From the NCBI GenBank assembly GCA_017464525.1, contig JAFTZM010000022.1, positions 30,562 through 94,561 on the forward strand: a stretch of DNA of 64,000 nucleotides, in the 5' to 3' direction. Below are positions 11,417-44,797 of this stretch, one piece after another. Position numbers and translations under genes: made by a program. The stretch is from Clostridia bacterium. Its GTDB lineage: Bacteria; Bacillota; Clostridia; Oscillospirales; QAKW01. The notes under the pieces are model-generated. The model was given only the letters and a program-made list of their open reading frames with translations, was not told where the DNA came from and did not search any database. Numbering within the stretch: the first letter of the stretch is position 1; each line of letters opens with the position of its first letter.

Positions 11417-11445
11417 ATTATATTATGTTTTTCACAACTTGTCAA
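11417..11445 (-). promoter_or_regulatory. consensus sigma-A promoter TTGACA-N17-TATAAT for glyQS
   Basis: -35 at 11440-11445 and -10 at 11417-11422 on the minus strand; about 25-nt leader with a GGAGG RBS; no T-box elements. Confidence 0.55.
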
Positions 11446-14304: not shown

Positions 14305-14307
14305 AAC

Positions 14308-15612: not shown

Positions 15613-17827
<2,215 letters not shown>

Positions 17828-17841
17828 GGAGGTGCTTCAAA

Positions 17842-27534: not shown

Positions 27535-27608
27535 TTAGGGTGGAGTGAGTGAAAGGCACCGAAATATACCGCTTTGAGGCGGGTCCGGATCTCTCACTCT
27601 ACCCTATA
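27535..27608. repeat. TA-flanked imperfect-palindrome repeat, truncated copy A (70 bp; same family as 32707, 34244, 41498)
   Basis: TTAGGGTGGAGTGAGTGA...TCTCACTCTACCCTATA. The inner 50 bp is about 90% identical to the right end of copy B. TA on both sides. Confidence 0.7.
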
Positions 27609-27695
27609 TATTAATCTATTTTTTGATATAAGACAAGATTTAATTGAAAAAAACTTTAGTATAGAGTAAAATATAGTTAAAAGGAGGGATGCCCG

Positions 27696-29723
27696 ATGGT
27701 TCCTGTAACAAAACTGCCCGGCGTGGGAAAGGCTCGGGCTGCCCTTTTGGAAAAATTAGGGATCTATACCGCCGAAGATCTGCTGGCGCTTTATCCTCAC
27801 CGTTATGAGGATCGCTCGATGGTGCTGCCCATCGAGGAAGTTACCATGCATATGGGCGAAAATGTCAGCATCGTTGCGGCGGTGCTGGAACCGCCCCGGG
27901 AGCGGCGGATCTATGGAGGCCGCACCATGACCCAAGTAACGGTGGGCGACCGTACCGGTGCCCTCACCGTCACCTTTTTTAATAATCCCTATATAAAAAA
28001 TAAGCTAAAAGAGGGAAAACTTTTTAATTTTTACGGCAAATTGGACCCAAAAATGCTGCTAAATATGGTAGCTCCTCAGGTGGAGGAACTGAAGCCCGGC
28101 AGTAAACCGGGGGTGTATCCCATCTATCCCCTCACCGCTGGGCTGAACCAACCCCAGCTGCGCCGATGGGTCAGGGCCGCCTATGAGGCGGTGCAGGAGA
28201 GTCTCACCGATCCTTTGCCGGAAAAACTGCGGGAAAAATATCAGCTGGCAGAGCTGCGGGAGACGATCGCCGCTGTTCATTTTCCCGCCGATCAAAAGGC
28301 GGTGCTTTGGGGCCGCCGACGGCTGATCTTTGAAGAATTACTGTACTTTCAGCTGGGGCTGGGCCTTTATTCCACCCGGGAAAAGGCGCAAAACCATTTT
28401 CAAATTCATGCGCCATCCCAGGATTTTTTAAAGCTGCAGCCCTTTACGCCAACACCCTCTCAGCAGCAGGCGGTGGCAGAGATCCTGCAGGATATGCAGG
28501 GGGATTTTGCCATGAACCGCCTTTTACAGGGGGATGTGGGCAGCGGTAAGACCTATGTGGCAGGAGAGGCAGCCTTTGCCGCCCTTTATTCCGGTTATCA
28601 GGCGGCGATCATGGCGCCCACTGAGATCCTGGCCCGCCAGCACGCCGAATATTTTCGGCCGCTTTTTGAAAAATTGGGCTATTCTACCGGCCTTCTGGTG
28701 GGCTCAATGACCCAAAAGGAGAAAAAAGAAACCTATGCCGCCCTGGAAAAGGGGGAGATCCAGCTGGTGGTGGGGACCCATGCCCTGCTGCAGGAACAGG
28801 TGCAGTTTCAAAATTTAGGGCTGGTCATCGCCGATGAACAGCATCGCTTTGGGGTGCGCCAGCGGGCAACCCTCGCTTCCAAAGGCAAAAAACCGCATAT
28901 TTTAGTGATGTCTGCCACCCCCATTCCCCGAACCATGGCGCTGATGGTGTGGGGGGATCTGGATCTTTCGGTGCTGGAGGGACTGCCCGCCGGCCGTAAG
29001 CAGATCCAGACCTATCTGGTGGGAACCGGTTATTGGAACCGCCTGCAGAACTTTATGGAGCAGCAGATCGCCGAGGGCGGGCAGGTGTATATCGTTTGCC
29101 CCTTGGTGGAGGAAAACACCGAATCGGATCTGAAAAGCGCCGAAGCCCTTTTTGCCGAATTGCAGCAGCAATACGGCCCGCTGGCCGATATGATTCACGG
29201 AAAAATGAAGGCCGCCCCTAAGGATGCGGCCATGGAAAAATTTGTGGCGGGGGAGACCAAGATCCTGATCTCCACCACGGTGATCGAGGTGGGCATCAAT
29301 GTACCTGCCGCCACCCTGATGATCTTAATGAATGCCGAGCGGTTCGGCCTTTCTCAGCTCCATCAGCTGCGGGGACGGGTCGGCCGCGGCAGCCGCCAAT
29401 CCTATTGTGTGCTGGTCAGCGATCATCAAAACGAAAAAACCCGGGAACGGCTGGAATACTTCTGCTCCACCACCGATGGCTTTGCCATCTCCGAAAAGGA
29501 TCTGGAGCTGCGTGGACCCGGCGATTTCTTTGGAAATATGCAGCATGGCTTGCCTAAAATGCAGATTGCCGATTGCGCCACCGATCTGGAATTGCTGACC
29601 CTTTCCAACCGTTGTGCCAAGCGCATGCTACAATACGATCCCGGCCTCACCGCTGAATATAACCAAGGCATCAGGCAAAAAGTGCAGGCCCTTTTCGAAA
29701 ACGAAAACACCATTTTTAATTGA
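27696..29723 (+). CDS. recG: ATP-dependent DNA helicase RecG
   Basis: N-terminal wedge domain; helicase motifs GDVGSGKT and DEQHRFG; 675 aa. Confidence 0.9.
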   Translation: MVPVTKLPGVGKARAALLEKLGIYTAEDLLALYPHRYEDRSMVLPIEEVTMHMGENVSIVAAVLEPPRERRIYGGRTMTQVTVGDRTGALTVTFFNNPYIKNKLKEGKLFNFYGKLDPKMLLNMVAPQVEELKPGSKPGVYPIYPLTAGLNQPQLRRWVRAAYEAVQESLTDPLPEKLREKYQLAELRETIAAVHFPADQKAVLWGRRRLIFEELLYFQLGLGLYSTREKAQNHFQIHAPSQDFLKLQPFTPTPSQQQAVAEILQDMQGDFAMNRLLQGDVGSGKTYVAGEAAFAALYSGYQAAIMAPTEILARQHAEYFRPLFEKLGYSTGLLVGSMTQKEKKETYAALEKGEIQLVVGTHALLQEQVQFQNLGLVIADEQHRFGVRQRATLASKGKKPHILVMSATPIPRTMALMVWGDLDLSVLEGLPAGRKQIQTYLVGTGYWNRLQNFMEQQIAEGGQVYIVCPLVEENTESDLKSAEALFAELQQQYGPLADMIHGKMKAAPKDAAMEKFVAGETKILISTTVIEVGINVPAATLMILMNAERFGLSQLHQLRGRVGRGSRQSYCVLVSDHQNEKTRERLEYFCSTTDGFAISEKDLELRGPGDFFGNMQHGLPKMQIADCATDLELLTLSNRCAKRMLQYDPGLTAEYNQGIRQKVQALFENENTIFN

Positions 29724-29817
29724 CAAATTTTACATGAATTTTTCACCTCAATTCGCTCAAAATACTTATTGTAAAGCAGATATCTGTTTTATAGAACGAA
29801 CAAGGAGGTGTAAGAGA

Positions 29818-30000
29818 ATGGACAATTCTGTTAAGAGCAATGCTAAGGCTGGTCTGGATAAGATGAAGTTTGAGGTCGCCCGTGAGATCGGTGTGGACCT
29901 GAAGCAGGGCTATAATGGTGATTTGACTTCCGCTCAGGCCGGTCATATCGGCGGCCAGATGACCAAGAAGTTGGTTGAGAAGGCTGAGCAGAGCCTGTAA
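29818..30000 (+). CDS. small acid-soluble spore protein, alpha/beta type
   Basis: 60 aa; motif KFEVAREIGVDL...GGQMTKKLVEKAEQ matches the SASP alpha/beta family; RBS AGGAGG. Confidence 0.8.
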   Translation: MDNSVKSNAKAGLDKMKFEVAREIGVDLKQGYNGDLTSAQAGHIGGQMTKKLVEKAEQSL

Positions 30001-30045
30001 AAAGGCGTATATCCGCACAGACCGAATTCGGAATGTGCCATAATA

Positions 30046-30074
30046 AAAGCGACCCTTATGGGTCGCTTTTATTA
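30046..30074. terminator. bidirectional terminator after the SASP gene
   Basis: AAAAGCGACCC-TTAT-GGGTCGCTTTT. Confidence 0.6.
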
Positions 30075-30080
30075 TGAGAA

Positions 30081-30620
30081 TTAAGCTTCAAAATAAACAA
30101 CCTGGAATAAATAATCCCCCACACCCAGCTGTTCCAAAAGGAGCACGGTCAAAAAGGGAATGAGCAGCATCAGCGGCAGCCAGACGTACCAATAAAATTT
30201 CTGAGGATGCACATTTTGCTTAAATTCCAGCTGCTCCTCGATGGAAAGATCCGCAAAAAGCTCGGCACGAATCTTGCGCATTTCGGGGTTCAGTCCCCGG
30301 TAGCCCTCCAGCTCTTCCTGATAGGAGACCTTCAGCTCATACCGCATGATTACAATGAACAGCAGCGCCAGCACGGCAGAGAACAAAATTGCCCACTGCC
30401 AATAAGCAATGGTGAAAAAGCAGGTATTCAGCAGCAGGGTCCAGGCGGTGCCGCTGATGATGGAAAGGGTGCCCTTCCGCATGGAGATATTGTGCTTTTT
30501 AAAAAAGTATTCAAAAATGTTGTATGCCACCAGTAAAATGATCAGCGGCGGCAGGATCCGTCCCACAGTAAGGGAATCCATCCAAGGGAAAAATGTGTAT
30601 TTTAAAGATTCTGTTTCCAT
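30081..30620 (-). CDS. hypothetical membrane protein (4-5 TM)
   Basis: Hydrophobic segments; no recognised domain. Confidence 0.45.
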   Translation of the reverse strand: METESLKYTFFPWMDSLTVGRILPPLIILLVAYNIFEYFFKKHNISMRKGTLSIISGTAWTLLLNTCFFTIAYWQWAILFSAVLALLFIVIMRYELKVSYQEELEGYRGLNPEMRKIRAELFADLSIEEQLEFKQNVHPQKFYWYVWLPLMLLIPFLTVLLLEQLGVGDYLFQVVYFEA

Positions 30621-30786
30621 TTTTTAACTCCAAAGCTGTTAATAATTTTATTATATCAATATTTTTCCTCAAAATCAATCAAGTTTACAAACATTTAACG
30701 AATAGAACATTGCAAAACCCTGTGGAAAATGTTAATATTATACTATATCCAAGAAATTGACACTTTAAACCGGGAGGAATAATACG

Positions 30787-31266
30787 ATGAGTTATTGCAA
30801 GAATTGCGGCCAGCCTTTGGCCGAAGGAGCCGCCAACTGTACCCTTTGCGGATGCCCCGCCGAAATGGGAATCGCCCATTGCGGTCATTGCGGGGAAAAG
30901 CTGGTGCCCGGCTCCATGTTTTGCGTAAAATGCGGAAAGCCCTCCGGTGTTCCGGTGATGCCTCAGCCTCCCGCACCTCAGCCTAAAAAACGACGTTCCC
31001 GCTATGCGGCCGCGGCCTTCGGGATCGTGATGGGTTCATTCGGTGTGCATAACTTTTACATAGGCAATTCCAGCCGGGGAATTGCTCAGATCGCCATTAC
31101 CCTTGCCGCCTATTGGCTGGTGATGGTGGGGGTACTGCCTGCCTTCGGTGGGATGCTGCTCAGCGGCCTTTGGGGCTTTATCGAGGGCGTGCTGATCGCA
31201 GTCGGCGATACCAAGACCGATGCAGAGGGCAATGCCCTGCGGCAATGGAATGAAGAAAATACATAA
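30787..31266 (+). CDS. zinc-ribbon plus TM2-domain membrane protein
   Basis: CxxC...CxxC double zinc ribbon at the N-terminus; TM2-like FGVHNFYIGNSSRGIAQ. Confidence 0.6.
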   Translation: MSYCKNCGQPLAEGAANCTLCGCPAEMGIAHCGHCGEKLVPGSMFCVKCGKPSGVPVMPQPPAPQPKKRRSRYAAAAFGIVMGSFGVHNFYIGNSSRGIAQIAITLAAYWLVMVGVLPAFGGMLLSGLWGFIEGVLIAVGDTKTDAEGNALRQWNEENT

Positions 31267-31275
31267 AAGGATACT

Positions 31276-31304
31276 AAAAAAGGCGCCCGCAGGCGCCTTT
31301 TTTT
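31276..31304. terminator. bidirectional terminator
   Basis: AAAAAAGGCGCC-CGCA-GGCGCCTTTTTTT. Confidence 0.65.
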
Positions 31305-31307
31305 GGT

Positions 31308-32693
31308 TTATTCTTCTTCGTTTTTGGGCTCTTCTGCTTCCTTACCCAGCAGGGTGGGCAACTCCATGCCGGCCTGCTTAAAGAGGTCATTCAGCGGGGG
31401 AACCGCCCCCAGCAGCCCGGAAAGAAAGTTGGCGGTGGTGCCTTTTCCGTCGGCACCGGTGCCGTTATCCCAAACGGTGATCTTATCGATCTTGATGTTC
31501 TTGATGGCATCCACCTGGATCTCCATCAGCTCCTGCAGCTTATCGGCGATCAGCAACTTCACTGCCGCATCCGCATCGCCGCCAGCGGCCTCCACCAGCG
31601 CACGCATACCTTCGGCCTGCTTTTCCAGGATCTCCTGAGCACCCCGGGCCTGCGCCTCCATCTTGGCGTAGATGGCGTCGGCTTCACCCTTTGCCTTGCG
31701 GCGGATCATTTCGGCCTCGGCCTCGGCTTCCAGCTCGGCCTGCTTCTTCTGGATCTCGGCCTTTACCAGAACGTCGGCTTCCTGCGTGGCTTTTTCCAGG
31801 CGGGCACGGGTCTCTTCTGCTTCCTGCTGGGCCACATAGGCTTCTTGCTTGGCTTTGGCAGCCTGCACAGCCTCGGCGGCGGCAGCGATACGCTCGGCCT
31901 CTGCCTGCTCCTCACGGCGCTTGGCATCGGAACGGGAAACGGCGATCTTGGCGGCGTTTTCACCCTCGATGGCCTCTGCATCGGCGGCGGAAACCTGCAC
32001 ACGCTGGTCACGGCGGGCGTTGGCCTGGCCGATCTCACCGTCACGGTCCTTTTCAGCCACGCTCTTCTTGGCGTCGTTGATGGCCTTGGCGGCGGCTTCC
32101 TTACCCAGCGCTTCGATGTAGCCGGATTCGTCGTTGATATCGGTAACGTTTACGTTGATCAGCCGGAGACCGATCTTTTTCAGCTCGATCTCCACATTGT
32201 TGGAGACCGCAATGAGGAACTTATCACGGTCGGTGTTGATCTCCTCAATGTCCATAGTGGCGATGATCAGACGCAGCTGACCGAAGATGATATCCTTTGC
32301 CAGCTCCTGGATCTCGTTCATCTTCAGCCCCAGCAGACGCTCGGCGGCGTTCTGCATGGTGCCAGGCTCGGTGGAGATGCCCACGGTGAACCGGGAAGGT
32401 ACATCCACACGGATGTTCTGCTTGGAAAGGGCATTTTTCAGATCTACATTAATGGAAATGGGGGTCAGATCCATGTACTGGTAAGATTGGATCACGGGTA
32501 CAATGAAGGCGGCGCCGCCATGGATACACTTGGCGCTGCGGGGCTGACCGTCCTTATCGCTGCCCACCTTACCGTAAATGACCAAAACCTTATCGGAAGG
32601 GCACTTGCGGTACCGGGAAAGAATGGCGATGACCGCCGCGAATAAAACTACTACGATGGCAACAATTCCAAATAAAATTCCTGCTCCGTCCAT
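31308..32693 (-). CDS. floT: flotillin-like SPFH/band 7 protein
   Basis: True start MDGAGILFGIVAIV (RBS AAGGAGGA); SPFH domain; Ala/Glu-rich coiled-coil with EA repeats; C-terminal flotillin tail. Confidence 0.8.
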   Translation of the reverse strand: MDGAGILFGIVAIVVVLFAAVIAILSRYRKCPSDKVLVIYGKVGSDKDGQPRSAKCIHGGAAFIVPVIQSYQYMDLTPISINVDLKNALSKQNIRVDVPSRFTVGISTEPGTMQNAAERLLGLKMNEIQELAKDIIFGQLRLIIATMDIEEINTDRDKFLIAVSNNVEIELKKIGLRLINVNVTDINDESGYIEALGKEAAAKAINDAKKSVAEKDRDGEIGQANARRDQRVQVSAADAEAIEGENAAKIAVSRSDAKRREEQAEAERIAAAAEAVQAAKAKQEAYVAQQEAEETRARLEKATQEADVLVKAEIQKKQAELEAEAEAEMIRRKAKGEADAIYAKMEAQARGAQEILEKQAEGMRALVEAAGGDADAAVKLLIADKLQELMEIQVDAIKNIKIDKITVWDNGTGADGKGTTANFLSGLLGAVPPLNDLFKQAGMELPTLLGKEAEEPKNEEE

Positions 32694-32706
32694 AATAAAA
32701 TCCTCC

Positions 32707-32984
32707 TTAGGGTAGAGCGAAATATTCGAACGCCGTTTTAAAAAGGCGGATTTTCGCTCATTCTTTGTTAAAATACTCGCCAATACGCCAGTATTGGCTG
32801 TGTTTTTGCCTTGACTGAACAAAAATCCGCACTTTTTAAGATCTTTGACCTCACAGCGAGGAGATTTCGAGGGATTTTTGCTCGATTTAGATGCAGCAAG
32901 GCTGGCGCCTTGCAAGGATAAAGCGAGTGAAAGGCACTGAAATATGCCGCTTTGAGGCGGGTTCGGATATCTCGCTCTACCCTA
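32707..32984. repeat. TA-flanked imperfect-palindrome repeat, full copy B (278 bp) inside the nfeD-floT operon
   Basis: Termini TTAGGGTAGAGCGA ... TCTCGCTCTACCCTAA; about 80% identical to the reverse complement of copy C; internal conserved hairpin GCCAATAC-GCC-AGTATTGGC. Confidence 0.75.
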
Positions 32985-33629
32985 ATCTTTTTCTACCACT
33001 AACATCCCGTCCCGGATGTCAATAATACGAACCTGAGTGCCTACCGCCAGCGCTTCCCCGGCGGTGATGGCTTCGTGCTCGGTAAAGGTGCCCTGCAGGG
33101 TGAAGGTCACCTTTCCGTGGCCTGCTCCATCTGCGGGGATGGGCAGGTAAACGGTTGCGGAGGCCCCTAAGGACAGCCGCAGATCCTGAGTGCCGTTTTC
33201 AGCCAGCCGGGCAGAGACCTGCACCAGCTTCGCCAGAAGCAGCATGGCCAGAACCCCTAAGATCCCGCCGATGACCAGCGCTACCCAAAGCTTGCTGCCG
33301 GTGTGCAATGAAACAATGGCGCTCCAGCCGAATACCGTTAAAAAGGCGATCACCGTTTGCAGGGTAAAAAGCCGCATGGTGGTGAAATCCGCCGGATTGC
33401 CACCGTCCAGAAAATCGAAGGGATCATCGGGAATATCCGCCGGCACATCACCGTCGATATCCAGATCCAGGCCGGAAATGTCGCTGCCGTCCACTCCTGC
33501 GCCGCTATCGCCAAATCCCAGCAGCAATAAAACCGTCTGGATCAACAGCACCACAGTGGCGGGTACCGCAATGCAATATAAAACCTTTAACGCTACGCTC
33601 AGCGTTTCCCACCAAGCAAACATGAGCAT
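32982..33629 (-). CDS. nfeD: NfeD-family membrane protein (flotillin-associated, YuaF-like)
   Basis: N-terminal TM segments; acidic linker; C-terminal OB-fold-like region; immediately upstream of the flotillin gene, as yuaF is to floT. Confidence 0.65.
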   Translation of the reverse strand: MLMFAWWETLSVALKVLYCIAVPATVVLLIQTVLLLLGFGDSGAGVDGSDISGLDLDIDGDVPADIPDDPFDFLDGGNPADFTTMRLFTLQTVIAFLTVFGWSAIVSLHTGSKLWVALVIGGILGVLAMLLLAKLVQVSARLAENGTQDLRLSLGASATVYLPIPADGAGHGKVTFTLQGTFTEHEAITAGEALAVGTQVRIIDIRDGMLVVEKD

Positions 33630-33639
33630 CCTCCTTTCG

Positions 33640-33656
33640 TGTAAACTCTATTTACA
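33640..33656. promoter_or_regulatory. operator-like inverted repeat TGTAAA-N5-TTTACA (site 1)
   Basis: Exact 6-bp arms; divergent nfeD/xre intergenic region. Confidence 0.4.
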
Positions 33657-33732
33657 GTTTATCGAAAAATTTCCTATTTGTCAATGATTTTTTAAAAATT
33701 TCCTCTTGATAATTTTTGGATTTTCTGTTATT

Positions 33733-33751
33733 CTGTAAATAAAGTTTACAG
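33733..33751. promoter_or_regulatory. operator-like inverted repeat CTGTAAA-N5-TTTACAG (site 2) overlapping the xre RBS
   Basis: Exact 7-bp arms, 15 nt upstream of the xre ATG. Confidence 0.4.
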
Positions 33752-33765
33752 GAAGAGGTGACATT

Positions 33766-34218
33766 ATGAACGCCGTCAAGATGGGAAAGCGTCTCCGGGA
33801 GGCCCGGCTTGCCAAAAAAATGACACAGGCCGAGGTGGTGGATGGCTTTATCACCCGCAATATGCTCAGCCAGATCGAAAGCGGATCGGCGACCCCTTCT
33901 ATGAAAACCTTGGAGTTTCTGGCAGGGCGGCTGGATCTTTCCATGGCCTCGCTGATGGCCGAGGACGAGCCCCGGGAGCCGATGGAGCGGCTTTTTGCTG
34001 CCAAGATCGCCCTAAAAATGCAGGAGACCGATGAGGTGCTGCGGCTGTTGCAGGATCCCCGGGAAGACGATCCCTTTTATGATGAATATTGCGCCATTCT
34101 GGCCAGAGCCTATGGGCTGAAGGCCGAGGCGGGCAACGACTCCGCCGCCCAGCTGGCCGCCTATTACGGCAGCCTTGGAATTTACCGCCGGGAAGCGGAA
34201 CTGGAAATGGAACTGTAA
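33766..34218 (+). CDS. XRE-family helix-turn-helix transcriptional regulator
   Basis: HTH_XRE motif LREARLAKKMTQAEVVDGFITRNMLSQIESG; helical C-terminal domain. Confidence 0.7.
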   Translation: MNAVKMGKRLREARLAKKMTQAEVVDGFITRNMLSQIESGSATPSMKTLEFLAGRLDLSMASLMAEDEPREPMERLFAAKIALKMQETDEVLRLLQDPREDDPFYDEYCAILARAYGLKAEAGNDSAAQLAAYYGSLGIYRREAELEMEL

Positions 34219-34243
34219 TGCGAGGGCGTAGGGCGCCCTCGGT

Positions 34244-34484
34244 TAGGGATATTCGCCCTGAAAAGAATCCTTTTGGCGCAATACTTCGTTAAAAATGTCA
34301 GAATGCCTGCGCTTTTTGCCTTGTCTTGCATCCAAACTGATCCCATTCAGGGTGCCACATGCAGTTTTGAGACACAAATTTTTTGTTCAGGCGCAATGAC
34401 AAAAATCCCGCAATGCTGACGCATTACGGGATTTTTTCGTTGTGTATGGGAGGAAAAGACGGTTTCAAAACCGATTCTTCCCTA
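34244..34484. repeat. TA-flanked imperfect-palindrome repeat, copy D (241 bp), nested inside a split terminator-like hairpin
   Basis: Termini GGGATATTCG ... CGATTCTTCCC; internal blocks shared with B and C (CTTCGTTAAAAAT, TTTTTGCCTTG, CAAAAATCCCGC). Flanked by GCGAGGGCGTAGGGCGCCCTC and GAGGGTGCCCTACCCTCGC. Confidence 0.65.
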
Positions 34485-34515
34485 TCTGAGGGTGCCCTAC
34501 CCTCGCATTTTATAT

Positions 34516-35562: not shown

Positions 35563-35673
35563 AGAAAAGCTCCTTTCTGAATTCTATTTTAAAGATTGCT
35601 GTAAAAACTGTCAATAAAATTAAAAAAATCTTAAGAAAAAGAGAAGATTTTCGCATGAAAATCTTCTCTTTTT

Positions 35674-36483
35674 TCAATCAATTTTTTCAAAAATAGGGGC
35701 GGCTTTATATTTAGCGGTCAGGTTTTGCCCTTCCACCGAGCGCACCGTCCAGAAAAATACCGGTGCCCCAAAGAGGGCGCGGCAGAGCCGAAAGGAGAGG
35801 TTGCGGTGGGATTCATAGTTATAGGCAATAAAATCCGGCCGGGAAAGAACATTCACCAGCAGATTTTCTAAAGCGAAGCTGATGGCGGAGCTCACTTTAG
35901 AGCCCTCCTTCCGTACATTCCCTGCCAGCTGCCCCCGCACCACATGGGGGGCATTGCGGCGAAACCAGAGGATCTGCCGGGGGTCAAAGGATTCCACACA
36001 ATAGGGGCCGGAATAGCGGGAAAGGGCGTCGTTCAGCGCCTGCCCCAGCTGGTTCCAGTTGCCGCCCACCACCTTGGCCTCCACCAGAAGCGGCACCTTG
36101 CCGTCCACTAGCTTAAAGACCTCCTCTAAAAGGGGCAGCCGCTCCTCGGTGCCCTCCAGCCGCAACTGTTGAAGTGCGGCCCAATCGGTCTTTTCAATAG
36201 TAAGCTCTGCGCCACAGGTGCGCATTAACGTATCGTCGTGCTCCACTACCAGTTTGCCGTCTTTAGAGAGGTGCACATCCAACTCGATCCCGTAGCCCTG
36301 CTCCACCGCCAGCCGAAAGGCGGTCAGGGAGTTTTCCGGCACCCCTTTTTGGATGTTATGCAGCCCCCGGTGGGCATAGCGATGCTTTTTCAGCTGCTCC
36401 AACCCGGCGGGGCGGCGCAGGCGGGGCATGATCATATAAAGCCACACCAACAGCAGCGCAGCAATGATAATCAAAATAACCAT
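35674..36483 (-). CDS. membrane-anchored glycerophosphodiester phosphodiesterase family protein
   Basis: GDPD motifs HRGLHN and ELDVHLSKDGKLVVEHD; ATG 1 nt after the stop of the upstream MFS gene. Confidence 0.8.
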   Translation of the reverse strand: MVILIIIAALLLVWLYMIMPRLRRPAGLEQLKKHRYAHRGLHNIQKGVPENSLTAFRLAVEQGYGIELDVHLSKDGKLVVEHDDTLMRTCGAELTIEKTDWAALQQLRLEGTEERLPLLEEVFKLVDGKVPLLVEAKVVGGNWNQLGQALNDALSRYSGPYCVESFDPRQILWFRRNAPHVVRGQLAGNVRKEGSKVSSAISFALENLLVNVLSRPDFIAYNYESHRNLSFRLCRALFGAPVFFWTVRSVEGQNLTAKYKAAPIFEKID

Positions 36484-36484
36484 A

Positions 36485-37756
36485 TCAATCCTCGGTATCA
36501 AAAATTTCCAAAGCGTCCTTGGGAGCATCGGGGCGGTTATCCCCGTGGCGTACAAAGAGCATGGTGATAAAGGCCAGCACGGAAAACACCAGCGCATAGG
36601 GGAACATCACCTGATAGCCCCAAGGCAGATGCTTGAAGAGGTAGCCGGAAAGGATGGGGGTGAGGATCTGGGCAGACATGGAGAAGGTATAGTAAAGCCC
36701 GGTGTATTTGCCCACATCGCTGCCCTTGCTCATCTCCACCACCATGGGGTAGGAGTTCACATTGATGGCCGCCCAGCCGATGCCGATGACCGCCATAATA
36801 AGGTAGGCCACAATGCTGTAGCCCGGCATCAGCATTCCGGTGCCGAAGGCGATGGCCAGCAGGCAAACACCCCCCAAGATCACCTTTTTCCGCCCCAGCT
36901 TGGCCGAAAGTTGGCCAATGGGCAGGTAGGCGGCGGTGGCCACCAGCATGGCAATGATCATCATGGTGGCGCCGGTGCCCTGCGGAATGTCCCACACATT
37001 TTCCACATACCGGGAATAGGCGGTATTGACCGCATTATAGGCCATAAACCAAAGGGACACGGAAAGCAGCAGGAAGGTAAGGCTCCGCTTGACCTCGCGG
37101 GGCATGGGCTTCTTTTCCCCGGTGGGGGTCTCATCCTTGGGCTCCGGAGGCATCTCTGCCACCAGCTTGTTTTCATGGATGGTAAGCCCCAAAATAATTG
37201 CGCAGGCCACCATAAAGCCCGCAATGATGGCAAATACATAGGGGTAGTTGGTCAGGGACTTTTCTTTTATGAACAGGGCGATGATCAGATAGGTCATAAT
37301 GCCGCCCAGCGCCCCCATCAGATTGATCACCGCATTGCCCTTGCTCCGCAGGGGCTTGGGGGTCACATCCGGCATCAGCGCCACCGCCGGGGAGCGAAAG
37401 GTGCTCATGACCACCAGCAGGACACCCACCACAATGAAAAAGTACAGCAGCCGGCCGGAATTGTTGGCGTGGGGCACCAGCAGCATCACCGCTGCGGCGG
37501 TGCAGGAACCGGCAATAATGAAGGGCTTCCGCTTGCCGAAGCGGGTGTGTACCCGATCGGAAAGGGCACCGAAAAGGGGCAGCAGCACCACCGCCAGCAT
37601 ATTGTCTGCCGCCATGATCCAGCCGCTGATATCATCGGTGACCTGAAACGTCTTCTGGAGCATCAAAGGAATGGCGTTGTCGTAGAGCTGCCAGAAGGCA
37701 GAGATGGCCATGAAGGCCAGCCCGATCAGGAATGTTCTTTTATAATTTAACTTCAT
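36485..37756 (-). CDS. MFS transporter
   Basis: 12 TM, 423 aa. Confidence 0.8.
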   Translation of the reverse strand: MKLNYKRTFLIGLAFMAISAFWQLYDNAIPLMLQKTFQVTDDISGWIMAADNMLAVVLLPLFGALSDRVHTRFGKRKPFIIAGSCTAAAVMLLVPHANNSGRLLYFFIVVGVLLVVMSTFRSPAVALMPDVTPKPLRSKGNAVINLMGALGGIMTYLIIALFIKEKSLTNYPYVFAIIAGFMVACAIILGLTIHENKLVAEMPPEPKDETPTGEKKPMPREVKRSLTFLLLSVSLWFMAYNAVNTAYSRYVENVWDIPQGTGATMMIIAMLVATAAYLPIGQLSAKLGRKKVILGGVCLLAIAFGTGMLMPGYSIVAYLIMAVIGIGWAAINVNSYPMVVEMSKGSDVGKYTGLYYTFSMSAQILTPILSGYLFKHLPWGYQVMFPYALVFSVLAFITMLFVRHGDNRPDAPKDALEIFDTED

Positions 37757-37773
37757 GTGATCTCCTTTTTGTG

Positions 37774-37821
37774 AAAAAAACCGGGATGCAATAATAAATT
37801 GCCTCCCGGTTTTGTTTTTTA
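37774..37821 (-). terminator. terminator after the alcohol dehydrogenase gene
   Basis: CCGGGA-loop-TCCCGG followed by a T-run on the minus strand. Confidence 0.5.
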
Positions 37822-37831
37822 TACCTGATAA

Positions 37832-38980
37832 TTACAGGAGAGATTTATAAAGAGCCTTGATCTCTTCAACGCTGGTATCGCGGGGATTGCCGGGGCGGCA
37901 AGCGTCTGCGTAGGCAGATTCAGCCAGGAAGTCCAGATCCTCTTCCTTTACGATCTCCTTCAGGTCGGCGGGAATGCCCACATCGGCGGAGAGCTTCTTC
38001 ACAGCGTCGATGGCGGCCTTGCGGTACTCTTCCACGCTCATCTTCTCGGTGCCTTCCACGCCCATGGCGGCGGCGATGTACTTATACTTATCGCCGGTGT
38101 TGGGGGCATTGTATTCCATCACGGTGGGCAGGATAATGGCGTTGGCTACGCCGTGGGGAGTGTCGTAAACAGCACCCAGAGGATGGGCCATGCTGTGCAC
38201 GATGCCCAGACCCACATTGGAGAAGCCCATACCGGCCACATACTGACCCAGCGCCATGCCCTCACGGCCCTCGGCGGTGTTATCCACAGCGCCCCGGAGA
38301 GAATTGGCGATGATCTCGATAGCCTTCAGATGGAACATATCGGTCATCTCCCAAGCACCCTTGGTGGTGAAGCCCTCGATGGCATGGGTCAAAGCGTCCA
38401 TACCGGTGGCAGCAGTCAGCCCCTTGGGCATACTGCTCATCATGTCGGGGTCTACGATGGCGATGTCGGGAATATCGTTCACATCCACGCATACAAACTT
38501 ACGGTTCTTCTCCACATCGGTGATGACATAGTTGATGGTCACCTCTGCGGCAGTACCGGCGGTGGTGGGAACAGCGATGGTGAATACGCACTTATTCTTG
38601 GTGGGAGCAACCCCTTCCAGGGAGCGTACATCGGCAAATTCAGGGTTGTTGATGATGATACCGATGGCCTTGGCCGTATCCATAGAGGAGCCGCCGCCGA
38701 TGGTCACGATGCAATCAGCACCGCTCTCCTTATAGGCCTTCACACCGTCCTGCACGTTTTCGATGGTGGGGTTGGGCTTAATGTCGGAGAACAGGGTGTA
38801 GGGAATCTTGGCTTCATCCAGTACAGCCAGCACCTTGCCGGTCACACCGAATTTTACCAGATCACTATCGGAGCACACAAAGGCCTTCTTGAAGCCTTTG
38901 GCATTCAGCAGGCCGCCGATCTCGTTGATGGCGCCTGCGCCGTGGTAAGAAATACCGTTTAATACGATTCTGTTAGCCAT
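37832..38980 (-). CDS. iron-containing alcohol dehydrogenase (lactaldehyde / 1,3-propanediol reductase-like)
   Basis: Fe-ADH motifs GGGSSMDTAK and the His cluster; 382 aa. Confidence 0.85.
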   Translation of the reverse strand: MANRIVLNGISYHGAGAINEIGGLLNAKGFKKAFVCSDSDLVKFGVTGKVLAVLDEAKIPYTLFSDIKPNPTIENVQDGVKAYKESGADCIVTIGGGSSMDTAKAIGIIINNPEFADVRSLEGVAPTKNKCVFTIAVPTTAGTAAEVTINYVITDVEKNRKFVCVDVNDIPDIAIVDPDMMSSMPKGLTAATGMDALTHAIEGFTTKGAWEMTDMFHLKAIEIIANSLRGAVDNTAEGREGMALGQYVAGMGFSNVGLGIVHSMAHPLGAVYDTPHGVANAIILPTVMEYNAPNTGDKYKYIAAAMGVEGTEKMSVEEYRKAAIDAVKKLSADVGIPADLKEIVKEEDLDFLAESAYADACRPGNPRDTSVEEIKALYKSLL

Positions 38981-39040
38981 GGGACTATACCTCCAAAAAA
39001 TTATTTACTGATTATATTGTAAAGGAATAGTCCGTAGATG

Positions 39041-41404
39041 TCAATGAATTTTTGCCGGATCGAAAAGCATTTCCGCCCGCAAGGTCTCCTCCGGCAGGGT
39101 ACCGGAAAGGATCTGCTCTGCCACCCGGCTGCCGATCTCCTTTTCGATCAGCCGGTGCACCGCCCGGGCGCCGTAGCGGCGATCACAGCCCCGGGCCGCC
39201 GCCTCCCGGGCCACCTCCTGATGGAACCGTACCGGATGCCCTTGCTGCTGCAGCCGATGCTCCAGTTCCCGCAGATGCAGCGCTGCGATCCGTTCCAGAG
39301 AGGCCAGCTCCAGCGGCCGGAATACCACCACCTCATCCAGCCGGTTTACAAACTCGGGCCGGAATTGTTTGGTGACCGCACGCCGGATGGAGGCAGCCAG
39401 ATCGGCGGGGCTGCTCTCCCCGAAGCCTAAGGGCTCCTCCTGTAGGGAAGAGGTGCCCAGATTAGAGGTCAAGATGATGATGGTGTTGCGGAAATCGGCG
39501 GTCTTGCCCTGGCCGTCGGTAAGGCGCCCCTCATCCAGAACGCCCAAAAGAATATTCAGCACATCCGGGTGGGCCTTTTCAATCTCGTCAAAAAGCAAAA
39601 TGGAATAGGGGTGGGCCCGTACCTTGCTCACCAGCCCGCCTCCCTGATCAAAGCCGATATACCCCGGCGGGGAACCGATGAGCCGGGAGACGGAATGGGG
39701 CTCCATGTATTCCCCCATGTCGTATTTGAGAAGCGCCTCCTCCCTGCCGAAAAGCTCCTTGGCCAAAAGACGGGCCAGGCGGGTCTTGCCCACCCCGGTG
39801 GGCCCGCAGAAAAGCAGGGTGCAGGAAGGTCTGCGGGGGTCGGAGACCCCTGTCTTGCTCCGCAGCAGAGCGGCGCAAAGGGTGTGGACCGCCGTTTCCT
39901 GCCCGATGAGCCGGGCAGAGATCCGCTCCTCCAGCCCCCGGTAGAGAGCATTGCCCTCCGGATCGTCGGCCTTCAAAGGAATGCCGGTCTTTTCTCCTAC
40001 CAACGCCGCAAGATCGGCGGCGGTGACAATGCCGGGGGCAGCCTCCGGGGTGCGGGTGGCCAGGATCTTTAATTGATCGATCTCGTCCCGTAGCTGCAGG
40101 GCGGCAGAAAACTGCTTGGAGCGCAGCATCTGATCCAGCTCCATCTGCTTTTGCAGAATACGGCTGCGGTGGTTTTGGGTGTCGGCCTGATAGCTGCGCA
40201 GCTGCTCCCGGGCGCCGGCCTCATCTAAAAGATCAATGGCTTTATCCGGTAAAAACCGATCCCCCATATAGCGCTGGGAAAGGCGGATGGCCGCATGAAG
40301 GGTCTCCTCCGGGAACTGCACCGAGTGGTGCTCCTCCAGGGCGGGGCGCAGCCCCTGCAGGATCTCAAAGGTCTGCTCCTCGGTGGGCTCCTCCACCATG
40401 ATGGGGGCAAATCGCCGCTCCAGGGCACCGTCCTTTTCGATGTGCTTGCGGTATTCCTCCAAGGTAGTAGCGCCGATTACCTTGATCCGTCCCCGGGCCA
40501 GGGCGGGCTTCAGGATATTGGCCGCATCGATGGCCCCTTCTGCCGCCCCGGCCCCCACTAAAATGTGCATTTCATCAATAAAAAGGATCAGATTGGGATC
40601 CTTTTCCGCCTCTTCGATGACCGCCCGGAGCCGTTCTTCGAATTCACCCCGGTATTTGGTGCCGGCGATCATGGCGGTGAGATCCAGCATCTGGATCTGT
40701 ACCTCCCGCAGGGCGGCGGGCACCTGCCCCACCGAGATCCTTTGTGCAAGCCCCTCCACGATCACCGTTTTACCCACACCCGGTTCCCCGATAAGGCAGG
40801 GGTTGTTCTTGTTCTGCCGCACCAGTACGCTCATCAGGGTCTCCAGTTCCTTTTCTCGGCCGATCAGCGGATGGGTCTTACCTAAAGCCCCCTCTTTGGT
40901 GAGATTTACCGCAAATTTACTGATGTTTTTGCCGGAGCGGGGCTTGTTTTTATCCGATTGCAGGGGCAGATCGGTCATTCCCATCCGCTCCTGCAGGGCA
41001 GATACCAGCTTTTTGGGCTCGCAGCCCAGCTCGCCCAGCATCCGGTAGGCCACCGCCTCCGGGGTCTCGCAGAGGGAGACCAGCAGGTGATCGGTGCCCA
41101 CCACCGAAAAACCGTGGCGGTGGGCGATCTCCCCGGCATGGGTAATGATCTGCTCCAGCCGGGGGGTCATATCGTTGATGGAAAGCAGGGTGGGGCTGCC
41201 CTTGCCGATCATCTGCTCCATTTTTTTGGCCACCTTATCGGGGGTCAGCCCCTTGGAGATCATCAGCCGGGAGGCGATCCCCTCGGTCTCCTTCAGAAGG
41301 CCGTAAAGCAGATGCTCACTTCCCAGATAGGTATGCCCCAGCTCCTCTGCGGCGGTCAGGCTCCGCTCCAGTGCATGGGCGGCAAGCTTTGAAAAACGTT
41401 CCAT
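39041..41404 (-). CDS. clpC: ATP-dependent Clp protease ATP-binding subunit ClpC
   Basis: Clp N repeats; two AAA+ modules (GEPGVGKT, GPTGVGKT); UVR-like middle segment. Confidence 0.9.
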   Translation of the reverse strand: MERFSKLAAHALERSLTAAEELGHTYLGSEHLLYGLLKETEGIASRLMISKGLTPDKVAKKMEQMIGKGSPTLLSINDMTPRLEQIITHAGEIAHRHGFSVVGTDHLLVSLCETPEAVAYRMLGELGCEPKKLVSALQERMGMTDLPLQSDKNKPRSGKNISKFAVNLTKEGALGKTHPLIGREKELETLMSVLVRQNKNNPCLIGEPGVGKTVIVEGLAQRISVGQVPAALREVQIQMLDLTAMIAGTKYRGEFEERLRAVIEEAEKDPNLILFIDEMHILVGAGAAEGAIDAANILKPALARGRIKVIGATTLEEYRKHIEKDGALERRFAPIMVEEPTEEQTFEILQGLRPALEEHHSVQFPEETLHAAIRLSQRYMGDRFLPDKAIDLLDEAGAREQLRSYQADTQNHRSRILQKQMELDQMLRSKQFSAALQLRDEIDQLKILATRTPEAAPGIVTAADLAALVGEKTGIPLKADDPEGNALYRGLEERISARLIGQETAVHTLCAALLRSKTGVSDPRRPSCTLLFCGPTGVGKTRLARLLAKELFGREEALLKYDMGEYMEPHSVSRLIGSPPGYIGFDQGGGLVSKVRAHPYSILLFDEIEKAHPDVLNILLGVLDEGRLTDGQGKTADFRNTIIILTSNLGTSSLQEEPLGFGESSPADLAASIRRAVTKQFRPEFVNRLDEVVVFRPLELASLERIAALHLRELEHRLQQQGHPVRFHQEVAREAAARGCDRRYGARAVHRLIEKEIGSRVAEQILSGTLPEETLRAEMLFDPAKIH

Positions 41405-41497
41405 ATGCTCACGCTCCTTTGAACCTATTATTGACAGCGTGTGTCTTTTTCATTATATGATTGAAAAAAATCCGTTATTATGTTATTATTTATAAGA

Positions 41498-41774
41498 TAG
41501 GGTGAGCAGTCAAACCAAGACTCGCCGTAAAGCAGTAAATTTCGCTGCTTTTTGCTCTGATCGTTCTTGCAAGGCGACAGTTTCCTTCACCCAATCGAAA
41601 CAAAAATCCCTCAAAATTCACTCGCTTTACGGTCATGGATTTTGAAAAGAGCGGATTTTTGATCAATCAAGGCACAAAACACAGCCAATACTGCCGTATT
41701 GGCGAGTAATTTAACGAAGAGTGAGCAAAAATCCGCCTTTTCAAAACGGAGTTCGGGTTTGACTGCTCACCCTA
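41498..41774. repeat. TA-flanked imperfect-palindrome repeat, full copy C (277 bp, reverse orientation relative to B)
   Basis: Termini TAGGGTGAGCAGTCAAAC ... GTTTGACTGCTCACCCTA (18-bp perfect TIR); internal hairpin GCCAATAC-TGC-CGTATTGGC. Confidence 0.75.
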
Positions 41775-44768: not shown

Positions 44769-44770
44769 GA

Positions 44771-44797
44771 AAAAACGGCCTTTAAGGCCGTTTTTTT
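44771..44797. terminator. bidirectional terminator shared by pepD and the convergent MFS gene (stem encodes KKRP-stop)
   Basis: AAAAAACGGCC-TTTA-AGGCCGTTTTTTT. Confidence 0.6.

What the first reader, a model, noticed from the sequence alone, without database searches (positions are those of the whole stretch)
27535..41774. Novel intergenic repeat family: TA-flanked, GGG...CCC-terminated imperfect palindromes with stems that co-vary between copies
Four copies occur in 14 kb: 27535-27608 (truncated, 70 bp), 32707-32984, 34244-34484 and 41498-41774. The two full copies are about 80% identical over about 280 bp; the third long copy (D) shares several internal blocks. Each copy begins GGG and ends CCC, and each has TA immediately outside both ends. 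Within each copy the two termini are near-perfect reverse complements of each other (B GGGTAGAGCGA, C GGGTGAGCAGTCAAAC, A GGGTGGAGTGAG, D GGGATATTCG / GGGAAGAATCG), but they differ between copies. An internal hairpin likewise keeps its stem and varies its loop (GCCAATAC-GCC-AGTATTGGC versus GCCAATAC-TGC-CGTATTGGC). A subterminal stem shows compensatory change (GCGAG/CTCGC in B versus AGCAG/CTGCT in C). This is compensatory covariation, which points to selection on a long-range stem structure (RNA or cruciform DNA) rather than only on transposase-recognised TIRs. No coding capacity and no transposase gene are present. TA flanks recall IS630/Tc1-type MITEs such as pneumococcal RUP or neisserial Correia elements. 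The covariation and the transcribed-context insertions recall ERIC-like structured intergenic repeats or an unclassified structured ncRNA. I do not recognise the sequence as a known family.
Basis: seen in the sequence. Interest (0 to 1): 0.75.

Follow-up and report, generated by a model that had tools for sequence, protein, structure and literature searches.

The report
New structured TA-inserting mobile repeat
The repeats are real copies of an undescribed ~277-bp non-coding mobile element from uncultured ruminant-gut Clostridia; it inserts at TA, usually just upstream of a gene's ribosome-binding site, and evolution preserves its folded shape but not the sequence of its ends.

Summary
B (32708-32984) and C (41498-41774, opposite orientation) are 79% identical inside but have different, self-complementary ends. 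A is a 70-nt internal-deletion form.

A public-genome scan found the family in 94 loci from 37 Clostridia MAGs of ruminant gut origin. It has no match in Rfam, in the plasmid or phage collections, or in searchable papers.

It is mobile. Sites B and C are empty in close relatives, and the site-B relative has a single TA where the window has TA on both sides. One site that is empty in the window is occupied in another MAG. Identical copies sit at different loci of one MAG.

Covariation is strong: 96% of cells pair, 53 of 74 pairs show double changes, and all 19 terminal-stem pairs covary.

Two features are new. The target is TA|AGGAG, exact in 18 of 63 copies and never in the opposite orientation. 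One internal helix shows strand-specific wobble.

No transposase was found.

Best reading: a MITE-like, trans-mobilised element whose ends act as a paired stem. The enzyme is unknown. It could be a TA-specific DDE transposase or a single-strand, structure-specific system.

This is a new variant of a known kind, of moderate interest.

The parts
32708..32984 (-). Copy B, full length: 273-bp body (32710-32982) plus TA on each side. The strand given is the 'sense' orientation, meaning the direction of the gene whose SD abuts the element. It lies between the stop codon of an NfeD-like gene (the TAG is made of the flanking TA plus the first G of the element) and the AGGAGG of a flotillin gene.
   Evidence: The site is empty in relatives L104, L105, L107 and L108.
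41498..41774 (+). Copy C, full length: body 41500-41772 plus TA on each side, in inverted orientation relative to B. It sits in the short leader between a promoter-like site (41461-41489) and the trmL-like SpoU methylase gene (ATG at 41787).
   Evidence: The site is empty in L100, L101 and L102 and occupied in same-species contigs L097-L099.
27536..27606 (-). Copy A, a 70-nt internal-deletion derivative. It keeps both arms of the terminal stem (GGGTGGAGTGAG / CTCACTCTACCC) and the first part of domain A. It abuts TA|AGGA upstream of a short-chain dehydrogenase gene.
   Evidence: (D5). Other deletion forms occur elsewhere.
34244..34484 (+). Copy D, a probable divergent or decayed relative. It has TA flanks, GGG...CCC ends and the same closing-stem-plus-two-hairpins fold, but only marginal sequence similarity to the family.
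   Evidence: no BLAST hit; HMM E=0.0026; fold z=-10.2.
34220..34506 (.). Host hairpin between convergent genes, probably a terminator. Its arms are 34220-34240 and 34488-34506. D is inserted at the TA in its loop (GGT-TA-TCT).
   Evidence: Sequence, fold, self-match of 34217-34509.
32708..32731 (.). B terminal stem P1, left arm. It pairs with 32961-32984.
   Evidence: I14: 25 nt, 92% complementary; helix 1.
32961..32984 (.). B terminal stem P1, right arm.
   Evidence: (I14).
32733..32841 (.). B long hairpin domain P3. Its conserved tip is GCCAATAC-GCCA-GTATTGGC at 32779-32798.
   Evidence: self-complementary match 32736-32839; helices 5-7.
32846..32957 (.). B domain A: outer stem P2, plus an inner hairpin tipped by GCAAGGC...GCCTTGC. 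The inner helix shows wobble pairs almost only on the + strand here.
   Evidence: (helix 2).
41498..41523 (.). C terminal stem P1, left arm. It pairs with 41749-41774. Its sequence (GGGTGAGCAGTCAAACC) is unlike B's (GGGTAGAGCGA...).
   Evidence: (I15: 26 nt, 88% complementary).
41749..41774 (.). C terminal stem P1, right arm.
   Evidence: I15.
59811..59812 (-). An EMPTY target site in the window: the TA in AAA-TA-AGGAGAAAAAACCATG, downstream of the AdoCbl riboswitch. The orthologous site in MAG contig L012 carries a family member.

Best explanation
These are copies of a non-autonomous, MITE-like mobile DNA element, about 273 bp plus TA on each side. It spreads in uncultured Oscillospirales-type Clostridia of ruminant guts.

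SHOWN
- It is multi-copy, and copies are identical or near-identical at different loci of one genome.
- Orthologous loci with and without it exist. The closest empty site has one TA where the occupied site has TA on both sides.
- It strongly prefers a TA followed by AGGAG (a Shine-Dalgarno sequence), always in one orientation. It therefore usually sits in an mRNA leader or between two genes of an operon.
- It folds into a 19-24 bp terminal stem (P1) that closes two long hairpin domains.
- All stems covary. P1 is the most variable part in sequence, yet its two arms stay complementary within each copy.
- Deletion derivatives always keep P1.

INFERRED
- An enzyme encoded elsewhere moves it in trans. 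That enzyme reads the conserved outermost bases (TA + RRG), the conserved inner CCGAAC block and the paired state of the ends, not the sequence in between.
- The conventional candidate is a TA-duplicating DDE transposase of the IS630/Tc1-mariner type.
- The target half-site TA-RGG resembles the element's own end (TA-RGG-T/A-G-A). This may explain why TAAGGAG is hit.
- Once inserted, the element is co-transcribed and forms a self-contained structure that leaves the SD free. By analogy with Correia/ERIC elements it may alter mRNA processing or stability.

The confidence given (0.5) is for the whole statement including the DDE-type enzyme. The core claim alone (a mobile, trans-mobilised element with a TA target next to the SD and paired ends) I rate at about 0.85.
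For: Family size: 96 pattern matches, 94 of them real, in 37 MAGs. One further copy lies in an IMG/VR contig.

Mobility:
- L047 and L078 are 100% identical with different flanks in one MAG. L035/L045 are 99.3% identical.
- Site C is empty in 3 relatives (intergenic 86-113 nt versus 382 nt).
- Site B is empty in 4 loci. In L104 (96% identical flotillin) the sequence reads GTAGA-TA-AGGAGG. In the window it reads GAT-TA-[element]-TA-AGGAGG.
- A site empty in the window is occupied in L012.
- Abutting elements share a single TA (L016, L019).

Target:
- An SD lies within 16 nt of one end in 45 of 63 copies and of the other end in 3 of 63.
- Exact TA|AGGAG occurs in 18 of 63 copies versus 0 on the other side. 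The background is 0.17% of TA sites.
- The mirrored half-site CCY-TA shows a weaker enrichment.

Structure:
- 96.2% of cells pair and 53 of 74 pairs show double changes. No shuffle of 500 reaches the observed score. Slid controls score 0.05-0.09 versus 0.34.
- The P1 arms are 63-64% identical between copies, versus 79% for the interior. They are 90% Watson-Crick within a copy versus 63% across copies.
- Deletion forms retain P1.
- The SD is not sequestered in folds that include it.
Against: - No autonomous element or transposase with matching ends was found in the window (48 ORFs). None was found in about 0.6 Mb of host loci. The extra metagenome scan gave none either.
- A DDE transposase normally reads TIR sequence. 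Here several P1 types coexist in one MAG.
- Symmetric ends do not predict an 18:0 orientation bias. Crude terminator counts do not differ enough between orientations to explain it by polarity selection.
- One inner helix shows strand-specific wobble: 36 versus 7 events. This points to a single-stranded form.
- Sequence alone cannot separate a TA duplication from an element that carries one of the TAs.
Confidence: 0.5

Rival explanations
1. The same mobile element, but moved as a folded SINGLE strand by a structure-specific enzyme. This could be a HUH/Y1 transposase (as in IS200/IS605 or REPIN/RAYT systems) or another recombinase acting on hairpin DNA. P1 forms within one strand and brings the two cleavage sites together. 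The target CTCCTTA lies 5' of the element on the active strand. The second TA belongs to the element and is not a duplication.
For: - The target motif is one-sided and insertion is strictly oriented (18:0; logo). This is the IS200/IS605 pattern (my knowledge of that family).
- P1 sequence is free but pairing is kept, and several P1 types coexist in one genome.
- The whole element covaries, not only its ends.
- The inner helix of domain A tolerates G-T only on the strand that carries CTCCTTA 5' of the element: 36 versus 7 events and 182 versus 15 cells.
- That strand folds better in 50 of 59 copies.
- The target (CCTTA) resembles the element's own 3' end (CCCTA/CCTTA/GCTTA).
Against: - Known HUH elements have no long terminal inverted repeats and make no duplication. 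Here TA flanks both ends, extends the palindrome, and is shared by abutting elements.
- P1 and P3 wobble is nearly symmetric between strands.
- No Y1-like ORF family was found in the window or loci.
- A, B and D have one orientation and C the other within one 14-kb stretch.
- A GC-skew proxy shows no replication-strand bias (26 versus 33 loci). That test is weak.
Confidence: 0.27
2. The element is primarily a host-useful structured RNA module, such as a leader or intercistronic stabiliser, an RNase III site or an insulator. Selection on RNA function in each mRNA keeps it, and mobility is only how it arrived.
For: - It lies in transcribed positions: 50 of 63 copies are within 40 nt of an ORF start, and many sit between a stop codon and the next SD.
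- C and A start a few nt after promoter-like -10 boxes, so P1 would be at the 5' end of the mRNA (sequence).
- It folds very stably and independently, leaving the SD free.
- Correia elements are proposed RNase III substrates (PMC2229807).
Against: - The downstream genes are unrelated (flotillin, tRNA methylase, dehydrogenase and many others), so it is not a riboswitch-like regulator.
- Close relatives do without it at the same genes.
- The clearest strand-specific helix is on the strand ANTISENSE to the mRNA, and the antisense strand folds better.
- Covariation across a dispersed family fits selection during propagation better than selection at each locus.
- No expression data are available.
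Confidence: 0.1
3. RNA-mediated mobility. The folded sense transcript, with its ends joined by P1, is inserted into mRNA or DNA at the accessible SD and copied back into DNA.
For: - Orientation is sense-only relative to the adjacent gene, and the sites are transcribed.
- P1 juxtaposes the two ends as in introns.
- A few conserved G-U pairs are specific to the sense strand (A2 column pairs 32-147 and 174-241).
Against: - No ribozyme or intron family matches.
- No reverse transcriptase in the window.
- TA flanks, terminal inverted repeats and TA sharing are DNA-transposon features.
- The strongest wobble asymmetry is on the antisense strand.
- D sits between convergent genes in a terminator loop.
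Confidence: 0.04
4. This is not a family at all, only chance palindromes or ordinary bidirectional terminators that look alike.
For: - D alone has only marginal similarity.
- The element contains terminator-like hairpins.
Against: - B versus C gives E=6e-52.
- More than 90 homologous copies give E down to 1e-74.
- Copies at different loci are identical.
- Clean insertion/empty pairs exist.
Confidence: 0.01

Closest known systems
Bacterial MITEs with TA ends: Correia/NEMIS (Neisseria), ERIC/RU-1 (enterobacteria), RUP (pneumococcus)
   Same: All are non-coding and multi-copy, with terminal inverted repeats, a 5'-TA-3' at both ends and a target duplication. They are intergenic and co-transcribed, and fold into long stem-loops. 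Correia RNA is proposed as an RNase III substrate, and RUP is linked to IS630-Spn1 through TIR similarity and TA targets (review PMC2229807).
   Different: - This element is longer: 277 bp, versus under 200 bp for the elements in that review.
- It is not A+T-rich (46% GC).
- It has a three-part fold, not a single hairpin.
- Its terminal repeats vary in sequence while staying complementary.
- It inserts in a fixed orientation next to AGGAG.
- Its hosts are uncultured Clostridia.
- No parent IS is known.
IS200/IS605-derived miniature elements (PATEs) and their HUH/Y1 single-strand transposition
   Same: The target motif lies on one side only and insertion is strictly oriented. Recognition depends on hairpin structure more than on sequence. 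Part of the element shows strand-specific pairing. The IS200/IS605 properties are stated from my own knowledge.
   Different: Those elements have separate subterminal hairpins, no long terminal inverted repeat and no duplication. Here the two ends pair with each other and TA flanks both. No Y1 gene was found.
REPINs (paired REP sequences mobilised by RAYT transposases)
   Same: Both are abundant intergenic imperfect palindromes in which hairpin pairing is conserved, and both are thought to move in trans by means of a single-copy enzyme (my own knowledge).
   Different: REPINs are shorter (about 100 nt), carry a conserved GTAG motif, have no TA duplication and are not tied to Shine-Dalgarno sites. 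No RAYT was detected here.
Integron attC sites
   Same: Both are imperfect palindromes conserved in structure but not in sequence, recombined in a fixed orientation as a folded strand (my own knowledge).
   Different: The conserved inner block here is CCGAAC...GTTCGG, which does not fit RYYYAAC/GTTRRRY. There is no cassette array and no integrase gene, and copies are dispersed at SD sites.

Membership tests
Bacterial MITE (generic) | Short, non-coding, multi-copy | tested here: met
   About 277 bp. The only ORF that enters it is a spurious upstream extension of the flotillin ORF. There are 94 loci in 37 MAGs.
Bacterial MITE (generic) | Terminal inverted repeats | tested here: met
   18-22 of 22 terminal positions are complementary in 60 of 63 copies. 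P1 cells are 94.5% paired.
Bacterial MITE (generic) | Target-site duplication shown by comparing empty and filled sites | tested here: met
   L104 has a single TA before AGGAGG, whereas the window has TA on both sides of B. Sites C and L012 are consistent but too diverged for base precision. A model in which the element carries one of the TAs gives the same sequences.
Bacterial MITE (generic) | A cognate autonomous IS with the same ends | tested here: inconclusive
   None was found in the window, in about 0.6 Mb of loci, or in the metagenome scan. Whole host genomes and ISfinder could not be searched.
IS630/Tc1-mariner-derived MITE (RUP-like) | TA target, duplicated | tested here: met
IS630/Tc1-mariner-derived MITE (RUP-like) | TIR sequence matches an IS630-family element and is conserved among copies | tested here: not met
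   At least 8 different P1 sequences exist, and several coexist in one MAG. The arms are 63% identical between copies. A match to a known IS630 member could not be tested without ISfinder.
IS630/Tc1-mariner-derived MITE (RUP-like) | Insertion in either orientation at a symmetric target | tested here: not met
   Orientation at TA|AGGAG is 18:0. The target logo is one-sided. Later selection cannot be excluded.
IS200/IS605-type (HUH, single-strand) miniature element | One-sided target motif 5' of the left end, with fixed orientation | tested here: met
   CTCCTTA| lies 5' of the element on one strand. Orientation is 18:0, or 45:3 for any SD within 16 nt.
IS200/IS605-type (HUH, single-strand) miniature element | No terminal inverted repeats and no duplication; separate subterminal hairpins | tested here: not met
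   A 19-24 bp terminal stem joins the two ends. TA flanks both ends.
IS200/IS605-type (HUH, single-strand) miniature element | Orientation tied to the direction of replication | tested here: inconclusive
   The GC-skew proxy gives 26 versus 33 loci. Skew in this genome is weak. In the window the split is three copies to one.
Any Rfam RNA family | Match to a curated covariance model | tested here: not met
   Only the AdoCbl riboswitch passes the gathering score in the window. The best E-value on B is 0.28, to a microRNA model.
Integron attC | R''/R' core sites (RYYYAAC/GTTRRRY), inside a cassette array next to intI | tested here: not met
   The inner block GTTCGG has C at the first R position. 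Copies are dispersed at SD sites. No integrase was found.
Retron ncRNA | Adjacent reverse transcriptase gene; single locus | tested here: not met
   No RT in the window. The element is multi-copy.
Correia / ERIC | Sequence identity to those families; RNase III cleavage of the transcript | not tested
   No reference sequences for those families were available in the tools used, and no expression or cleavage data exist. The resemblance is functional only.

The most novel reading that the evidence does not exclude
The element is moved by a mechanism not yet described for bacterial repeats. An enzyme would recognise a folded single strand (a closing stem of arbitrary sequence plus two hairpins), cut at the TA at the foot of the stem, and integrate it in one orientation beside the Shine-Dalgarno sequence TAAGGAG. 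That would be a structure-read, ribosome-binding-site-targeting transposon.
Probability: 0.2. Interest if true: 0.85.

Novelty: new variant of a known kind. Interest (0 to 1): 0.55.

Why it matters
If the conservation pattern reflects mechanism, this family is a natural case of a transposable element whose ends are read as a paired structure, not as a sequence. It would also be an element that homes to the ribosome-binding site in a fixed orientation.

- For mobile-DNA biology, that would point to an unrecognised enzyme or mode of recognition in abundant but uncultured gut Clostridia.
- For gene expression, dozens of genes per genome acquire a 277-nt, about -120 kcal/mol structure directly upstream of their SD, or between operon genes. 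That makes a testable natural experiment on mRNA processing, stability and translational coupling.
- For metagenomics, the repeat visibly breaks assemblies: many contigs end inside it.

Tried and rejected
- Rfam at the gathering and E-value thresholds: nothing.
- blastn of B against plasmids and phages: no match.
- Literature searches by topic and by literal sequence strings: nothing relevant.
- Orphan terminal repeats, or pairs of ends far apart, as a sign of an autonomous IS in about 0.6 Mb of loci: this found only 46-47 bp mini-forms.
- Multi-copy ORF families of at least 180 aa, and of 100-200 aa, in the loci as transposase or Y1 candidates: none.
- Pfam on all 48 long window ORFs: no transposase, integrase, HUH or RT.
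- Metagenome scan with a domain-A pattern to find a longer version: 9 loci, all miniature or truncated.
- A third region co-varying with the variable part of P1, as a guide-like partner: none (10.6 versus 10.6 matches of 19).
- An internal CTCCT motif acting as an anti-SD or target guide: rejected. The AAGCA-type subfamilies lack it yet still hit AGGAG, and folds do not pair it with the SD.
- My first strand test (G-U 239 versus A-C 78 favouring the sense strand): withdrawn. The structure had been predicted on that strand. A fair comparison is symmetric for shared stems and favours the opposite strand for domain A.
- Polarity selection as the cause of the orientation bias: terminator-like counts are similar in both orientations.
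- Replication-strand bias by GC skew: uninformative.
- An orthologous empty site for D: relatives have a different gene order there.
Full report
1. CHECKING THE OBSERVATION

I read the four stretches directly. Including both flanking TAs, the copies are:
- A: 27536-27606
- B: 32708-32984
- C: 41498-41774
- D: 34244-34484

Each body starts GGG and ends CCC, with TA immediately outside.

B and C are homologous but inverted relative to each other. The repeat finder reports three collinear inverted blocks at 91%, 75% and 70% (I1-I3). BLAST gives 79.4% identity over 238 bp, E=6e-52. That alignment stops about 20 nt short of each end.

The ends differ between B and C, yet within each copy they are 92% and 88% complementary over 25-26 nt (I14 and I15).

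A matches the last 63-70 nt of B at 87-90% and keeps both terminal arms. It is an internal-deletion form.

D has no BLAST similarity to B or C. It scores only E=0.0026 against a family HMM, with collinear short blocks. It does fold into the same closing stem plus two hairpins (z=-10.2) and has the same TA/GGG...CCC/TA ends. I treat D as a probable divergent or decayed relative.

2. THE FAMILY OUTSIDE THE WINDOW

I scanned one genome per prokaryotic species for the tip hairpin CTCGCCAATACNNCNGTATTGGC. This returned 96 stretches. Of these, 94 are true homologues by nhmmer (E down to 2e-74). The other two are chance matches in unrelated phyla.

The 94 stretches come from 37 MAGs labelled Acutalibacteraceae, Oscillospiraceae, Eubacteriales or Clostridia. 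The MAGs named for a host animal come from goat, cattle, water buffalo and roe deer gut. Several MAGs have 6-10 loci with that exact tip alone, and one 8-kb block carries three copies (L050). Many contigs end inside the element.

One more copy, with a compensated tip (GCAAATCC...GGATTTGC), lies between two genes of an IMG/VR viral contig.

Nothing similar turned up in four searches:
- Rfam, at the gathering threshold and at E up to 10.
- The plasmid and phage collections.
- Topic searches of the literature.
- A search of paper text for the literal sequences.

ISfinder and Dfam could not be queried.

3. IT IS MOBILE, AND THE TARGET IS TA

- Within one MAG, L047 and L078 are 100% identical over the whole element but have different flanks. 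L035/L045 are 99.3% identical and L090/L093 are 97.5% identical.
- Site C: three relatives with 83-92% identical TrmL keep the same ClpB-TrmL gene order but have an 86-113 nt spacer, versus 382 nt in the window. Contigs with the identical TrmL all carry the element.
- Site B: in the closest relative (flotillin 96% identical) the NfeD and flotillin genes are 2 nt apart and the junction reads GTAGA-TA-AGGAGGATTAATCATG. The window reads GAT-TA-[GGG...CCC]-TA-AGGAGGATTTTATTATG. Three more distant loci are also empty.
- Conversely, the window has an empty site (TA at 59811-59812, minus strand, in AAATAAGGAGAAAAAACCATG). Its orthologue in L012 is occupied.
- Abutting elements share a single TA (L016, L019).

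These data fit a 2-bp TA duplication. They fit equally an element that carries one of the two TAs.

4. WHERE IT LANDS

I oriented each of 63 full copies the same way. One end has a Shine-Dalgarno-like motif within 16 nt in 45 copies, and an ORF start within 40 nt in 50. The other end has such a motif in only 3.

The reconstructed target is N-TA-AGGAG. Exact TA|AGGAG occurs in 18 of 63 copies on that side and in none on the other. TA plus 0-3 nt plus RGGAG occurs in 22 versus 0. Among all TA dinucleotides in the same loci, 0.17% are followed by AGGAG.

The mirror half-site CCY-TA is weakly enriched on the other flank (5 of 48 versus 2.7% expected, p=0.009). The half-site TA-RGG resembles the element's own end (TA-GGGTGA, TA-AGGTGA).

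Many copies sit between the stop codon of one gene and the SD of the next, at what was a TAAGGAGG operon junction.

In the window:
- B lies between NfeD and flotillin.
- C lies between a promoter-like site (TTGAAA-17-TATTAT with TG, 41461-41489) and trmL.
- A lies just after a -10-like TAATAT and before the dehydrogenase SD.
- D lies in the loop of a host hairpin between convergent genes.

5. STRUCTURE AND COVARIATION

I aligned 59 full copies (A2). RNAalifold gives three parts:
- a 19-bp terminal stem P1;
- domain A, closed by P2;
- a long hairpin P3 tipped by GCCAAUAC/GUAUUGGC.

On that structure:
- 96.2% of cells form standard pairs.
- 53 of 74 pairs have changes on both sides.
- The covariation score is 0.34, versus 0.13 for shuffles (0 of 500 reach it) and 0.05-0.09 for slid partners.
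- All 19 P1 pairs covary.

The P1 arms are the least conserved part in sequence:

| Comparison | Value |
|---|---|
| P1 arm identity between copies | 63-64% |
| Interior identity between copies | 79% |
| P1 Watson-Crick pairing within a copy | 90% |
| P1 5' arm of one copy against 3' arm of another | 63% |

Parsimony on a tree built from interior columns gives about 82 double changes in P1, 20 in P2 and 45 in P3. This is a rough count. The tip region is invariant by ascertainment.

At least eight P1 types exist, and several coexist in one MAG.

What is conserved at the ends is TA, then RRG, and an inner CCGAAC...GTTCGG block.

No third region tracks the variable P1 segment.

Deletion derivatives always keep P1:
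- A (P1 plus part of domain A);
- L096 (P1 plus P3, about 175 nt);
- 46-47 bp minis that are P1 alone.

6. WHICH STRAND FOLDS?

My first count favoured the strand that matches the downstream mRNA. That count was biased, because the structure had been predicted on that strand.

Predicting on each strand separately gives a different picture:
- The 53 shared pairs show symmetric wobble (56 versus 66 cells).
- P1 events are 31 versus 27, and P3 events are 33 versus 21.
- The inner helix of domain A (A2 columns 48-76 with 102-129) forms well only on the strand ANTISENSE to the adjacent gene. There it has 182 G-T cells versus 15, 36 versus 7 inferred events, and 27 double changes.
- That strand also folds better in 50 of 59 copies (mean -129.9 versus -122.3 kcal/mol).

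A domain-specific asymmetry cannot come from a strand-wide mutation bias. So at least part of the element is selected as a single strand, and that strand is not the mRNA strand.

No convincing internal promoter was found.

7. THE ENZYME

None was found.
- All 48 long ORFs in the window are housekeeping or unknown. None hits a transposase, integrase, HUH or RT family.
- About 0.6 Mb of host loci contain no orphan ends, no widely spaced end pairs, and no multi-copy ORF family.
- A metagenome scan with a domain-A pattern gave only miniature or truncated copies.

8. INTERPRETATION

Firmly: this is a non-autonomous mobile element family of the bacterial-MITE kind. It is new in sequence and host range.

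The conventional mechanism is a TA-duplicating DDE transposase of the IS630/Tc1-mariner type, acting in trans. It explains the terminal repeats, the TA flanks, the sharing of TA, and the survival of P1-only forms. It matches the properties summarised for Correia, ERIC and RUP (PMC2229807).

It does not explain three things:
(a) end sequences that drift freely yet stay complementary, with several types in one genome;
(b) the 18:0 orientation at an asymmetric target, when terminator-like features are about equal in both orientations (1.47 versus 1.93 per copy);
(c) the strand-specific helix.

All three are expected if the element is handled as a folded single strand by a structure-specific enzyme, as in IS200/IS605, REPIN/RAYT or attC systems. 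None of those families fits either, because of the terminal stem and the TA on both sides.

I therefore give the general statement (mobile, trans-mobilised, ends read as a pair, TA target next to SD) high confidence, about 0.85. I put the version with a DDE-type enzyme at about 0.5 and the single-strand alternative at about 0.27.

Effects on the host mRNA (a 5'-terminal or intercistronic stem, possible RNase III processing) are inferred by analogy and were not tested. Folds that include the SD leave it unpaired.

9. VERDICT

It is a new variant of a known kind. The oriented SD-adjacent insertion and the structure-not-sequence conservation of the ends give moderate interest (0.55). Interest would be considerably higher if a structure-reading mechanism is demonstrated.

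Noticed in passing
window 1040-20331: A cluster typical of the chromosomal origin region, all on the + strand: mnmE, mnmG, rsmG, then four ORFs without Pfam hits, then dnaA (11601-12965), dnaN, a recF-like gene, gyrB and gyrA. mnmE/mnmG/rsmG read toward dnaA, and GC skew does not flip here. The exact origin and the replichore assignment are therefore uncertain.
   Followed up: partly
window 59880-60022 (-): An AdoCbl (B12) riboswitch is the only Rfam hit in the window (56.3 bits). In MAG contig L012 a family member sits just upstream of the SD of the orthologous downstream gene. That is the position which, in the window, lies between this riboswitch and that SD, and an insertion there might uncouple regulation.
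   Followed up: partly
window 5666-11529: Four consecutive + strand ORFs (252, 268, 596 and 489 aa) next to dnaA have no Pfam match at E<=1e-5.
   Followed up: no
L106 and L107 about 100-250 (reverse strand), also L105: A different, about 70-nt repeat (AATAAGAACCCGACCCGCCAAACGCAATTAAAATTGCGGGTGGGTTCCCCGGAACCTTGTTGTTT). It is present once in L105 and twice in tandem in L106/L107, downstream of the HTH gene. It looks like another small palindromic repeat family in these genomes.
   Followed up: no
L103 647-925 (IMG/VR contig IMGVR_UViG_3300018495_003546): A family member sits between two co-oriented genes of a 5-kb contig classed as viral, directly before AGGAGG. Phage or prophage DNA could carry the element between hosts.
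   Followed up: partly
L115 8278-8651: A family member interrupted by an insertion of about 72 nt in domain A.
   Followed up: no
window 44749-44817 and 35622-35687: Two near-perfect local inverted repeats (34 nt and 31 nt arms, loops of 1 and 4 nt) rich in A/T runs, probably bidirectional terminators. They are unrelated to the family (I6 and I9).
   Followed up: no
L078, L005, L051 (three different MAG species): Copies in different species-level MAGs from different animals are 97% identical, closer than the host genes compared here. This suggests recent horizontal spread or very strong constraint.
   Followed up: no
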